Below, one piece after another: positions 1 through 10,479 of a stretch of DNA of 11,053 bases. Position 1 is the first letter of the stretch. Each line of letters opens with the position of its first letter. A model generated the notes under the pieces. It ran no database searches. It was not told the origin of the DNA and was given only the letters and a program-made list of their open reading frames with translations. The stretch spans positions 70,594 through 81,646 of the forward strand of contig JBJCIZ010000744.1 of the NCBI GenBank assembly GCA_051294375.1, written 5' to 3'. This DNA is from Paraspadella gotoi. Its lineage: Eukaryota > Animalia > Chaetognatha. A program made the translations under genes and the position numbers.

Positions 1-1052
<1,052 letters not shown>

Positions 1053-2285: not shown

Positions 2286-2678
2286 TGGTACAACCAATAT
2301 AAAAATTATCCATTCATTAAATAAATAAGCTATCTTGCCCTTGACTTTGGATAGTGGTTTAAGGCCTCCATCACTCTTACAAGATAATGACATTGCAAGT
2401 CCCTGCAAGCTTTCAATCAAGACTCTCTCACTATTAATTATTAAAAAGTAACAAAGTAGAAGCACAAAAAGATTGAAAAAAATTATTATGTAACTGAAAC
2501 ATTCTTTGAAATATTATACTACTTCATAGGGAAGCCAGGTACTCAGGGAGTAAATAAATGAGACTGTGAGAGAGTCTTGATTGAAAGCTTGCTAAGAGAG
2601 ATGGAAGCCTAAAATCACCAAAGCCTGTCCAAAGTCAGGGGCAAGATAGCTTATTTATTAAATGAATGGATAATTTTT
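2286..2678. mobile_element. Dispersed repeat 'A' present as an inverted pair (about 2286-2430 and 2567-2678); MITE/fold-back-like
   Basis: gcaagctttcaatcaagactctctca (2405-2430) is the reverse complement of 2567-2592. aaaaattatccattcattaaataaataagctatcttgccc (2301-2340) is inverted, with one mismatch, at about 2639-2678. Further copies occur at about 6453-6805 and 9464-9504. Confidence 0.7.
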
Positions 2679-3345: not shown

Positions 3346-3376
3346 GACTGAATTCAATGCCCGACTACAAACTCAC

Positions 3377-4034
3377 CCAAGTGATGAGAGTGAAGGTGAC
3401 CAGAAATGGACGAGTGAGTGTGAAGCGACGGTGGGTTCGGCAGCGGCGGACTCGTCGGCGGGCCGCTCTCGCCGCCGCTGACGCTCAGCAGCGCCCCCAT
3501 CGAAGTCCCGTGTCCGCCGACGTGCAGCGGCGAATGCTGCGGCTGCTGCGAGGAGGACTGACCGACTCCGCCGACGACGGAAGCATTGTTCGACATGTGA
3601 TGTTGATGCAGCGAGTGATGGTGATGATGCTGTAGTGAGTGATGCTGGGGTGGCGGAGGAGGGTGATGATGATGATGATGGGCCGAGTAGGCCGAGGTAA
3701 GTCCGTGATACGCCCCGCCGCCGCCGCCGGAAAGTCCGCCGACGCCGCCGCCGGGCGAATGCAACGCCGCCGACGCCGCGGAGACGTGATTTGCGTGGAG
3801 GTGCGTCGAAGACGGCGAATGTCCCATCGACGCCGGATGCATGACGCCGACGCCAGCCGCGGCAGAGGCGCCGCCGCTGCCGCCGCCCATGGAAGACGGC
3901 GTCGGGGGCGGAGAGCCGAGGTCGGAATCGGCGCCGGTGAGCGGCTTCACGTCCTGCGTGTCCATCGTCGTGTGGACGGCGCCTGGTGTGGGTGAGTTCA
4001 AGTGCTGGTGCATCGAGGCCGAGTACAGCTGCAT
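3377..4034 (-). CDS. SoxN: SoxB1/SoxNeuro-like gene, first coding exon (His/Gly/Ser/Pro-rich N-terminus)
   Basis: GC-rich ORF MQLYSASMHQ...HSHHLG with poly-His/Gly/Pro tracts. It contains TMDTQDVKP, resembling the SoxB1 N-terminal motif (Sox2 MMETELKP). It ends at the consensus donor TTG G|GTGAGT (GT 3376-3375, phase 1), which matches the phase of the acceptor at 1284/1283. Confidence 0.85.
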
Positions 4035-4738
4035 TTGGGAGTAAGTATTCTGTAGCGGCAGAGAGCAGAGAGGGAGAGATAGCAGAGATAGACGGATTTA
4101 CGTCCGGGGGAAAATGGGAACGAAGAATGGAACCGGAAATGAACGAGCGCCCGGTTTCACTCCGGTTCGGTTGCCGGTCTTTCCTTTTCAACTTCTTTCC
4201 GGCGGATTTCGATTCGGCGACGCGAAGAGAGAGAGAGAGAGAGAAGGAGGAGAGAGGAGCGAGGAGAGAGAGAGAGAAGAGAAGAGAGAGAGAGAGAGAG
4301 AGAGACGGCGTGGATTCACCGAAATCGGCGTCGTTTCGCCGATCGCGGCGTCGCCATTTTAGGGCGCCGGGGGGAGAAGGAAATTTCAAGAAATGCGATC
4401 GCCGGTCTTTCCTTTGATCGTATGAAAATGCGAGCAGAGGGAAAAGCGGAGAAATGAAAATGCGAGCAGAGGGGAAAGCAGAGAAATGAAGTGATCGGTC
4501 CCTCTCGACTTTTTTTGAAGATTTTGGTCGCACGAAGTGTAAACGAAAAGTGGGCGACTGAGATTTGACGCGAAATTCGGCGTGGATTTCGAAGCGCCGC
4601 GAGGTCGAGGCTGTGGCTAAAAGAGAGAGAGAGAGACGATTCGTCTTTTGACGCCACCTGTCCGACGAGAGAGAGAGAGATAGAGAGAGAGTTTCTTTTT
4701 TGACGATTGAAATTCGCAGAAAGAAATTTGCTTTTCAC
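4035..4738 (-). other. Probable 5' UTR portion of the Sox exon
   Basis: Strong acceptor-like site (T-rich tract, cttttcAG|G at 4740-4739) with CTAAC about 40 nt upstream. I found only one ATG on the minus strand across these 704 nt. Confidence 0.5.
4422..4490. repeat. 32-bp tandem duplication
   Basis: atgaaaatgcgagcagaggg(a/g)aaagc(g/a)gagaa at 4422 and 4454. Confidence 0.9.
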
Positions 4739-5590: not shown

Positions 5591-5615
5591 NNNNNNNNNN
5601 NNNNNNNNNNNNNNN
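5591..5615. other. Assembly gap (25 N) within a GA/GACA repeat
   Basis: Run of N. Confidence 1.
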
Positions 5616-6228: not shown

Positions 6229-6603
6229 TTCGTCATTCAATTTTTGTGCGTGAGTTTTTTTTTTCCTTTATTATCTGAAAAATGTTTATATATTTAGACA
6301 AGAAATTGCGGATTCAACAGTTGAACTTTGAATTAGAAAATGAAACTAAATTAATTTAACACTATCCCGTGAGTATTAAATGAGTTCCTGATATTTATAA
6401 TAATATTTGTTCAAAAGCTCCCAATACATTTATACTACTTACAAACTAGTCGGTGAGAGTCGGGATTAAAAGCGAGCAGAGTTCTCCTCTGTGATTTTCC
6501 TGTAAGAGAGATAGAGGCCTTAAACCACCATAGTCAGAGACAATATAGCTTATTTATTTAAGCAAAGTTCGAAATTAGTTTCTTCAACGATTTTTATTTT
6601 TGT

Positions 6604-6643
6604 ACGGACATGTTTCGACTCTTTTTCGAGTCTTCATCAGCGT
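6604..6643 (-). ncRNA. Minimal type I hammerhead ribozyme motif (canonical core)
   Basis: ACG-CUGAUGA-A-GACUC-GAAAAA-GAGUC-GAAA-CAUG-UC^CGU. Stem I ACG/CGU, stem II GACUC/GAGUC, 1-bp stem III capped by the palindrome CAUG, predicted GUC cleavage between 6607 and 6606. Confidence 0.8.
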
Positions 6644-6679
6644 TGATGAAGACTCGAAAAAGAGTCGAAACATGTCCGT
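6640..6679 (+). ncRNA. Mirror hammerhead motif with a C3>U core change (UUGAUGA)
   Basis: GCG-TTGATGA-A-GACTC-GAAAAA-GAGTC-GAAA-CATG-TC-CGT. Confidence 0.6.
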
Positions 6680-6997
6680 ACAAAAATAAAAATCGTTGAA
6701 GAAACTAATTTCGAACTTTGCTTAAATCTCAACTCAACGAAACTGAAAGGATTAATACAATAGCTTATTTATTAAATGAATAAATAATTTTTATATTGGT
6801 TGTATGAACATAACATATCATGAAGTTAGAAAATCGTCGTTTTCATCGGAAAAAGACAAAAAATCGGAAAACCCTTAAAAGATTACAGGCAAACCGAAAG
6901 TAATCTCTCTCTCTCTCTCTCTCTCTCTCTTTCAGACGTTGTTTATTTAATTTTTTCTTCTTCATCTTACATAATCTTTTTTTATTTCATTTATGAC

Positions 6998-7093
6998 TAA
7001 TTCATTCCATCATTTCATTCCATCATTTCATTCCATCATTTCATTCCATCAATTCTTTTCCATCATTTCATTCCATCATTTCATTCCATCATT
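6998..7093. repeat. 13-bp minisatellite (TTCATTCCATCAT)n
   Basis: About 7 tandem copies, one degenerate. Confidence 0.9.
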
Positions 7094-9463: not shown

Positions 9464-9504
9464 TGGTACAACCAATATAAAAAATAGCCATTCATTTAAT
9501 AAAT
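9464..9504. mobile_element. Short fragment of dispersed repeat 'A'
   Basis: tggtacaaccaatataaaaaatagccattcatttaataaata closely matches 2286-2327. Confidence 0.7.
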
Positions 9505-9901
9505 ACGTTACAAACATGGCATTTTTTTCTTATCTTCGCTTTCAGTTTACGCAAGTCATTATTCTTCATAGCTGTACATTGTATTTTTGGAACATGACGC
9601 GACATATTTTGCCAGGAGCAATGCATTATTTAAAAAAAATATAAAACCATCCTTCATATATTTAGGTATTTTTTCACTGTTAACTTTTTCACTCTTAACC
9701 AATAGACTTCATATTTTAACAATTACCATACAGACATTCCTACCACTTCATACTAATTGAAATATAACTCTCATTTTCATAATTTATAATTAAAGTACTT
9801 AACAAACATATCTTCATCTCTCAAACGGACTTCTCCATTTTCTTTCTCTCTTTCTTTCTTCTTTTTCTTTTCCGAGTAAATCTTTCTTTCGCGAGTCCGA
9901 A

Positions 9902-10280: not shown

Positions 10281-10479
10281 CGTCGAAGTCATCTCTAACA
10301 GCGAGGGGGTATAGGAAAAGGGGGCGAGGGTGAAGGACCCTTTTCACCATGGCGTCGAAGTCATCTCTAACAGCGAATGGGGTATAGGAAAAGGGGGCGA
10401 GGGTGAAGGACCCTTTTCACCATGTCGTCGAAGTCATCTCTAACAGCGAGGGGGTACAGGAAAAAGGGGCGAGGGTGAA
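10281..10479. repeat. 72-73-bp tandem repeat, about 2.7 copies
   Basis: cgtcgaagtcatctctaacagcga...ggggcgagggtgaa units start at 10281, 10353 and 10426. Confidence 0.95.

What the first reader, a model, noticed from the sequence alone, without database searches (positions are those of the whole stretch)
6545..6773. 172-bp palindrome made of two back-to-back hammerhead ribozyme motifs, with a tail and 14-bp TSD: a tiny, very young Penelope-like insertion
Seen: identical 84-bp inverted arms around GCGT. Each arm reads outward as hammerhead core, stem II, GAAA-CATG-TC, then AATAAA. The right arm has a 32-nt unpaired extension, and atagcttatttatt is duplicated on both flanks. Established: Penelope-like element pLTRs carry minimal type I hammerheads with a 1-bp helix III and palindromic tetraloop, thought to act as dimers, and often insert with an inverted pLTR copy and a short 3' tail. 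Inference: this is a roughly 200-bp ORF-less insertion that folded back exactly at the 5' edge of the ribozyme, so either an extreme truncation product or a member of a non-autonomous palindromic retrozyme-like family.
Basis: partly seen in the sequence, partly recalled or inferred. Interest (0 to 1): 0.85.

Follow-up and report, generated by a model that had tools for sequence, protein, structure and literature searches.

The report
Mirror-image Penelope retrotransposon stub
This 200-base mirror-image insertion is likely a dead stub of a Penelope-type jumping gene, likely made when both cut DNA strands copied the front end of the element's RNA and the two short copies joined; the same shape is common in other animals, so it is a clue to how these elements insert rather than a new ribozyme element.

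Summary
The 84-bp arms, 32-nt tail and 14-bp duplication are as described. The insertion sits in a high-copy host repeat whose two intact copies in this window carry the 14-mer once, so the duplication is a real TSD. Only the minus strand has a full hammerhead core; the plus strand has U at position 3. The two motifs lie on opposite strands, and read-through RNA is predicted to bury both in an 84-bp hairpin. The unit is a small, near-identical multicopy family and also occurs without the mirror arm. In other animals' DNA the same hammerhead form lies in head-to-head pairs in 45 of 84 evaluable rows; 21 distinct loci have a TSD, 20 of them a one-sided 26-43-nt tail, with fold-back points spread from -11 to -290. 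This is the short extreme of known Penelope-like insertion anatomy, not a fixed palindromic family. Likely mechanism: two-ended target-primed reverse transcription. No parent ORF was found and reads do not bridge the centre. The scan noted this kind before (127 notes, at least 23 genomes).

The parts
6545..6558 (.). left copy of the target-site duplication (14 bp; last 3 nt also match the element)
6559..6639 (-). left arm: inverted pLTR fragment, sense on the minus strand, ending at the short end point (6556-6639 if the 3-nt overlap is counted)
6640..6643 (.). 4-nt centre; on the minus strand it supplies stem I (5' side) and C3 of the hammerhead
6604..6643 (-). minimal type I hammerhead, canonical core: 3-bp stem I, extra A, 5-bp stem II, 1-bp helix III with palindromic tetraloop; predicted cut between 6607 and 6606
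   Evidence: motif description in PMC4209133
6640..6679 (+). second hammerhead copy with U at position 3 (core not canonical); site equivalent to the cut lies between 6676 and 6677
6644..6727 (+). right arm: pLTR fragment, sense on the plus strand
6728..6759 (+). one-sided tail (32 nt; 32-37 given the ambiguous junction letters), element sequence shared by several copies
6760..6773 (.). right copy of the target-site duplication (first 1-4 nt may also match the element)
6455..6558 (.). left half of the older, unclassified high-copy repeat that was hit
6774..6804 (.). right half of the same host repeat
2289..2427 (-). uninterrupted paralogue of the host repeat: carries the 14-mer once (empty-site proxy)
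2570..2678 (+). second uninterrupted paralogue, 14-mer once

Best explanation
It is a 201-bp head-to-head insertion with a one-sided tail and a target-site duplication, likely a dead-on-arrival stub of an endonuclease-bearing Penelope-like element that was likely built at the target by two reverse-transcription events, one from each nicked strand. Shown: the anatomy, the duplication, the multicopy unit, and the same anatomy in relatives. Inferred steps: (1) the element's RT-endonuclease nicked both strands of an AT-rich site up to 14 nt apart; (2) each 3' end primed on uncleaved sense RNA, one at the short site (6724-6727, helped by 3 matching letters) and one 32-37 nt further on, which makes the tail; (3) both cDNAs ran through the hammerhead and stopped within about 4 nt of its core; (4) their ends met through the 6-nt near-palindrome 6639-6644, were filled in, and the top-strand version of the mismatched centre was fixed. 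The stub has no ORF; read-through RNA would form an 84-bp hairpin that blocks both hammerheads, so it likely neither cuts nor moves. Odds: Penelope-like truncated insertion about 0.9; two-ended priming given that, about 0.75.
For: TSD real: two paralogous empty sites. Anatomy equals the published one: inverted pLTR, 31-bp tail and 9-bp TSD in Pen2a_Av (PMC3846280); inverted truncated copy and 30-40-bp tail (PMC8557442); opposite-strand hammerhead pairs 100-700 bp apart (PMC4209133). Biochemistry of an anole element: both strands cut and extended, ATT preferred, two RT start sites that bound the tail, unprocessed RNA as template, predicted dimer (PMC11167929); here the left TSD copy ends in ATT. 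Family contigs: exact-arm contigs at depth 800-867 against 88-106 for single-copy contigs in X1, 1694 against 102-180 in X3; arm-to-tail contigs only 493 and 1085, and arm contigs end at 6726/6727, so several copies likely stop at the same short site (rough). Related contigs match the top strand through 6644 and then diverge (loose ends at 6644; X3 record 9), so the centre reads as native sequence of the left arm joined to the right arm with 1 shared letter. A tail-primed strand folding on itself would put this loop on the other strand, and a left-primed one could not make the tail (sequence logic). Relatives: 24 of 41 evaluable rows have a TSD against 3 of 150 random controls; 21 distinct loci, TSD 10-18 bp, tail 26-43 nt in 20; in 3 of 3 asymmetric loci with both a TSD and a traceable middle (L014, L029, L063) the tail is on the arm that is shorter at its 5' end, as here. 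Hairpin -136 kcal/mol; hammerhead fold -1.0 against -10.1 for the best monomer fold.
Against: No RT or GIY-YIG ORF of this family was seen: no genome. Among 59 ORFs from AT-rich related loci the only RT hit (L045) is on the opposite strand and looks LINE-like by recalled motifs; only L094 has a GIY-YIG-like end upstream of its hammerhead, with no Pfam hit and a weak Atlas lead (score 0.88, family on 17% of members). The proposed end-to-end pairing is weak (-3.4 kcal/mol, 4 bp). PMC11167929 describes RT start sites as not homologous to the cut DNA, whereas 3 letters match here, and it does not propose this origin for inverted copies in the parts read. PMC3846280 explains the same junction palindromes by self-priming on an antisense template, which the loop polarity does not exclude. 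None of the 48 head-to-head rows in relatives has a gapless centre as close to the core as this one (nearest -11.5), so why both copies stop here is unexplained. The relatives come from a pattern-selected, truncated scan (110 of an estimated 520 stretches) of other animals.
Confidence: 0.68

Rival explanations
1. Same Penelope-like origin, but the palindrome formed before integration by self-priming of an antisense RNA (or a hairpin intermediate), and the endonuclease then trimmed the two ends unequally to leave the tail.
For: Proposed in PMC3846280 from palindromes at inverted junctions; tail ascribed to endonuclease-mediated resolution in PMC8557442. The centre is a near-palindrome and the loop polarity fits an antisense strand folding back.
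Against: PMC11167929 maps two RT start sites on sense RNA exactly to the tail ends and shows extension of both strands. Letters matching the target at the short end (3 nt) and probably at the tail end (1-4 nt) fit priming at both ends. Several relatives have 91-227 nt of native unpaired sequence between the arms, which needs no terminal hairpin.
Confidence: 0.16
2. A non-autonomous palindromic family (retrozyme-like): the whole mirror unit is itself transcribed and mobilised.
For: The unit is near-identical in several copies; a few other contigs run a short way across the centre with mismatches (X1 record 4 and X3 record 12 at 6606-6656 with 5 other letters; X4 record 18 and X6 record 27 at 6595-6650). 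cis pLTR sequences suffice for mobilisation in trans (PMC3846280).
Against: The unit also exists with non-mirror upstream sequence (X9 record 21; loose ends at 6642 and 6644). Family contigs branch at 6640-6644. Read-through RNA is an 84-bp hairpin that hides the hammerheads. Relatives show a spread of centres within one family, not a fixed one. Retrozymes are head-to-tail tandems of canonical hammerheads (PMC7229834).
Confidence: 0.08
3. The centre (or the whole palindrome) is an assembly or fold-back library artefact.
For: The window is a gapped scaffold (N run at 5591-5615), and perfect palindromes are a known artefact class (own knowledge).
Against: A fold-back chimera would mirror the flank as well; here the right side goes on into a family tail, the second TSD copy and the missing half of the host repeat. 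Single-copy contigs of two samples run from the left flank into the inverted arm with no differences, 26 and 18 letters past the junction (less than the tool's 31-letter bridging rule). The same anatomy recurs in 21 independent loci.
Confidence: 0.05
4. A functional RNA locus (miRNA-like hairpin or working ribozyme pair) near the Sox gene.
For: Any read-through transcript would give a long perfect hairpin; miRNA models score on it, all below their thresholds.
Against: Arms are still 100% identical and sit in a repeat with a fresh TSD, which points to a recent insertion; the hammerheads are on opposite strands and one lacks C3. No expression of this locus was shown.
Confidence: 0.03

Closest known systems
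Typical insertion of endonuclease-positive Penelope-like elements, e.g. Pen2a_Av of Adineta vaga (PMC3846280, passages read; PMC8557442, passages read)
   Same: Head-to-head inverted pLTR copy, 30-40-bp tail on one end only, TSD, AT-rich target, insertion into another repeat.
   Different: No ORF and no direct pLTR pair: reduced to 81-84 nt plus 116 nt; junction right at the hammerhead's 5' edge; TSD 14 bp against 8-10 bp in the passages read.
Poseidon element of Anolis carolinensis (PAc; PMC11167929, parts 1-2 of 4 read)
   Same: Hammerhead followed within about 120 nt by two end points that bound a tail; ATT at the cut; hammerhead left uncleaved in the copied RNA.
   Different: In PAc the ORF starts at stem II; here the AUG in the core reads 17 codons to a stop. 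Three letters match between target and element here.
Minimal PLE hammerheads (PMC4209133, parts 1-2 of 4 read)
   Same: Type I, short helix I, extra nucleotide between 9 and 10.1, G10.1-C11.1 pair, palindromic helix III loop; opposite-strand pairs were already reported in Schistosoma.
   Different: Pair is back to back with no spacer rather than 100-700 bp apart; helix II 5 bp and helix I 3 bp; one copy has U3.
Metazoan non-LTR retrozymes (PMC7229834, passages read; bioRxiv 10.64898/2026.07.22.740005, part 1 of 5 read)
   Same: Short, non-coding, type I hammerhead, long TSD, PLE-related.
   Different: Those are head-to-tail tandems of 150-450-bp units that cut out a circular RNA; this is a head-to-head pair that cannot release a unit.

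Membership tests
Endonuclease-positive Penelope-like elements | ORF with PLE reverse transcriptase and GIY-YIG endonuclease in the parent element | not testable with these tools
   No genome held; the stub has no ORF; reads show at most 30 letters beyond the unit. In relatives only a weak lead (L094).
Endonuclease-positive Penelope-like elements | Inverted, 5'-truncated copy joined head to head | tested here: met
Endonuclease-positive Penelope-like elements | 30-40-bp tail at one end only | tested here: met
   32 nt; shared by several copies
Endonuclease-positive Penelope-like elements | Target-site duplication at an AT-rich site | tested here: met
Endonuclease-positive Penelope-like elements | Minimal type I hammerhead in the pLTR | tested here: met
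   Descriptor hit on the minus strand; aligns with 31 relatives chosen for good stems (core letters were imposed by the search pattern). Rfam uninformative.
Hammerhead ribozyme (function) | Self-cleavage after the GUC | not testable with these tools
   Monomer fold disfavoured (-1.0 against -10.1 kcal/mol); the helix III palindrome self-pairs at -4.6 kcal/mol. Published minimal motifs cut weakly as dimers (PMC4209133) or only with protein (PMC11167929).
Metazoan non-LTR retrozymes | Head-to-tail tandem units with a hammerhead in each, same strand | tested here: not met
   Copies are head to head on opposite strands; no tandem at this place.
Metazoan non-LTR retrozymes | Expressed unit-length linear and circular RNA | not testable with these tools
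   Only contigs available; X9's RNA status is a guess.
   No listed contig bridges the exact centre (8 pieces shown per run for X1 and X3, 113 not shown); non-mirror upstream contexts exist.

The most novel reading that the evidence does not exclude
Inverted pLTRs of Penelope-like elements are made at every insertion by a dimeric enzyme copying two RNAs at once, one per nicked strand, and the minimal hammerhead serves mainly as an RNA-RNA pairing signal (through its palindromic helix III loop) that brings the two templates together, like a retroviral dimer signal, rather than as a cutter; this stub would be the smallest record of that event, with both copies running off an RNA end just before the hammerhead.
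Probability: 0.15. Interest if true: 0.75.

Novelty: new member of a known kind. Interest (0 to 1): 0.3.

Why it matters
As an object it is ordinary: one more truncated Penelope-like insertion. Its value is as a clean footprint. How these elements make inverted ends and tails is called undefined in PMC8557442 and was explained by antisense self-priming in PMC3846280, while PMC11167929 supplies two RT start sites and cutting of both strands. An unmutated stub with readable junctions gives exact predictions (nick positions, both start sites, the join) for the in vitro system that now exists. Three full-text searches found no paper in the held library stating the two-ended model for these palindromes; the scan's own notes state it for other genomes. 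Practically, such stubs are perfect hairpins that can be mistaken for miRNA precursors, MITEs or new ribozyme elements.

Tried and rejected
No genome was held, so copy number, parent ORF and centre sharing could not be counted directly. Contigs: no listed piece bridges the centre or the tail-TSD junction in X1 or X3, and depth at 6765-6773 was 0 at 96% likeness; 4360 and 113 pieces were not shown and a filter drops records, so this neither supports nor refutes the assembly (graph cleaning of thin links between high-copy repeats is my guess). Runs X4 and X6 (another study) show no depth at 6562-6584 although parts of the left flank are covered; this hints that the young subfamily or this insertion is missing there, but these runs also have holes in the flanks, so it is not evidence. 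Joints skipping 219-252 nt come with other letters between and are read as paralogues of the host repeat, not as empty alleles. Viral scan: 1 hit (L001), inside a phage-like coding sequence, a chance match. Rfam: no hammerhead at any threshold tried. Look-alike search among the scan's notes by sequence and nearby place: nothing; genome notes concern twister elements, not this family. No start of a long ORF in the unit: the core AUG gives 17 codons; one frame is open for 37 codons without Met. 5 of 12 asymmetric relatives had a middle that matched no other locus and could not be oriented. No covariance model was built because the aligned relatives were chosen for pairing. Supplements of PMC11167929: 3 text files, none held the 4 terms searched; its figures S1-S2, which map start and cut sites, could not be seen and bear on the 3-letter match.

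Full report
Observation. The window holds two 84-nt arms, 6556-6639 and 6644-6727, fully complementary around a 4-nt loop. A 32-nt unpaired stretch follows the right arm (6728-6759), and a 14-mer is repeated exactly at 6545-6558 and 6760-6773. In 2000 shuffles of the flanks the best direct repeat was 12 letters, and 1 of 2000 shuffles of 6300-7000 gave a hammerhead-descriptor hit. The last 3 letters of the left 14-mer also belong to the arm, so 201 nt lie between the duplicated copies and the boundaries are ambiguous by a few letters. Read outward, the minus strand gives a complete minimal hammerhead (3-bp stem I, canonical core, one extra A, 5-bp stem II, 1-bp helix III with a palindromic tetraloop); the plus strand has U in place of C3. 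Rfam found no hammerhead here nor in 5 of 5 related loci.

The duplication is a TSD. Both flanks are halves of one older repeat. Two uninterrupted copies in the same window (2289-2427 minus, 2570-2678 plus) carry the 14-mer once and continue as the right flank does; a third, partial copy at 9464-9505 is diverged there. This also argues against a fold-back chimera, which would mirror the flank. The host is an animal by its intron-split Sox gene; no genome was held.

The family in this animal. Twenty runs were listed, 8 of one organism with a third or more of the words; 5 were laid, all as contigs. Single-copy contigs of X1 and X3 run from the left flank into the inverted arm without a difference, to 6584 and 6576; that is 26 and 18 letters past the junction, under the tool's 31-letter rule. 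Exact-arm contigs have depth 800-867 in X1 (single-copy contigs 88-106) and 1694 in X3 (102-180), so the unit is likely present in roughly 8-17 near-identical arm copies; this is my rough ratio, and the tool warns that summed depth is no copy number. Contigs joining arm to tail have depth 493 and 1085, and arm contigs end at 6726 and 6727, so several copies likely end at the same short site; variant tails explain part of the gap. Tail contigs end at 6761 (X1) and 6760 (X3), and an X9 contig aligns to 6763, so 1-4 letters at the tail junction may be shared with the target. That X9 contig (364 nt, 1 other letter, 2 gaps) holds 6644-6763 with 46 upstream letters that are not the mirror arm (record 21). 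Loose ends at 6642 and 6644 show two other upstream contexts; in one, the top strand is matched through 6644. No listed contig bridges the centre or the right junction; this is inconclusive (see Tried and rejected).

The same anatomy elsewhere. Unimposed pairing was common: stem II of 4 bp or more in 77 of 111, stem I of 3 bp or more in 82 of 111, both in 59. The 111 rows fall into 101 clusters. An inverted copy lies head to head upstream in 48 of 111 rows, or 45 of the 84 rows with at least 300 nt upstream, while only 1 row has an inverted copy within 900 nt downstream (103 rows have at least 300 nt there). Seven of the 48 touch a contig edge and were dropped; 24 of the other 41 have a flanking direct repeat scoring 10 or more, against 3 of 150 random placements. 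Removing three duplicates (L060 counted twice, L043, L075) leaves 21 of 38: TSD 10-18 bp (median 13, one mismatch allowed from 12 bp), tail 26-43 nt in 20 and 8 nt in one. Centres range from -11.5 to -290 relative to C3 (one poor gapped case at +3); this window is at -1.5. So the finding is the short extreme of a continuous series. A direct link to a Penelope ORF was weak: 59 ORFs from AT-rich loci gave one RT hit, on the opposite strand and LINE-like, and one locus has a GIY-YIG-like end.

Literature. PMC3846280 (passages) describes inverted pLTR, 31-bp tail and TSD as the typical Penelope structure and proposes antisense self-priming. PMC8557442 (12 of 14 passages) generalises the inverted copy and 30-40-bp tail and calls the cycle undefined. 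PMC4209133 (parts 1-2 of 4) defines the minimal hammerheads, notes opposite-strand pairs, low activity, and an intron ending at helix I in Drosophila virilis. PMC11167929 (parts 1-2 of 4; supplements searched) shows cutting and extension of both strands, ATT preference, two RT start sites equal to the tail ends, and use of unprocessed RNA. PMC7229834 (12 of 39 passages) and bioRxiv 10.64898/2026.07.22.740005 (part 1 of 5) define retrozymes as tandem units. Searches found no paper stating a two-ended origin of these palindromes; subscription papers are not covered.

Mechanism. Both sense 3' ends point outward, as expected if each nicked strand primed its own cDNA. The short start (6724-6727) and the long start (6759-6763) are 32-37 nt apart. 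The copied RNA still had its hammerhead, so it was uncut. The top strand reads native left-arm sequence to 6644 and then right-arm sequence, the product expected if two cDNAs ending about 4 nt before the core paired through the near-palindrome 6639-6644 (weak, -3.4 kcal/mol) and were filled in. A single tail-primed cDNA folding on itself would leave the loop on the other strand, and a left-primed one could not make the tail; 3 of 3 informative relatives also have the tail on the arm with the shorter 5' end. Antisense self-priming with later trimming is not excluded. Why synthesis stopped here (RNA start, splice junction, capture by the near-palindrome, or chance) is open. As for function, the two motifs are on opposite strands, read-through RNA folds into an 84-bp hairpin of -136 to -139 kcal/mol, and even the free monomer prefers a non-catalytic fold, so the locus likely neither cuts nor moves; it could be a source of double-stranded RNA.

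Earlier notes. My two-ended reading was written before the first look-up. The scan holds 127 notes with these words in at least 23 genomes; they agree, pointed me to PMC3846280 and to the cut-site check, and lent the title's wording. They are not independent evidence.

Verdict. Real, young, well preserved, and a new member of a known kind. Interest 0.3; higher only if the two-template or pairing-signal model is shown.

Noticed in passing
window 161-331 and about 1030-1290, 3354-4050 (minus strand): Intron-split Sox gene: HMG box (Pfam PF00505), best solved relative SOX-2. The insertion lies about 2.5 kb upstream of its first long coding stretch, across an N gap at 5591-5615. The upstream exons were read from open frames only.
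   Followed up: partly
window 2289-2678; 6455-6804; 9464-9505: Unclassified, very high-copy repeat. Two copies at 2289-2427 and 2570-2678 face each other as a 390-bp inverted structure; its conserved end carries a small hairpin. MITE-like or Helitron-like, not tested.
   Followed up: partly
window 10281-10479: 73-bp tandem, 2.8 copies, 94% matches, each with a GC-rich inverted stretch.
   Followed up: no
window 561-821: 57-bp tandem, 4.6 copies, built of telomere-like units, inside a Sox intron.
   Followed up: no
L063, L031, L056 (hammerhead region): The shorter inverted arm begins 3, 10 and 10 nt before the predicted hammerhead cut, near but not at the cut; no clear sign of cleavage in vivo.
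   Followed up: partly
L094:1-195: Peptide resembling the end of a Penelope GIY-YIG domain (recalled motif) about 190 nt upstream of a same-form hammerhead, same strand; Pfam silent, Atlas lead weak.
   Followed up: partly
window 6608-6653: Many diverged relatives of this hammerhead exist in the same animal, differing by indels in loop II (tables 2 and 4).
   Followed up: no
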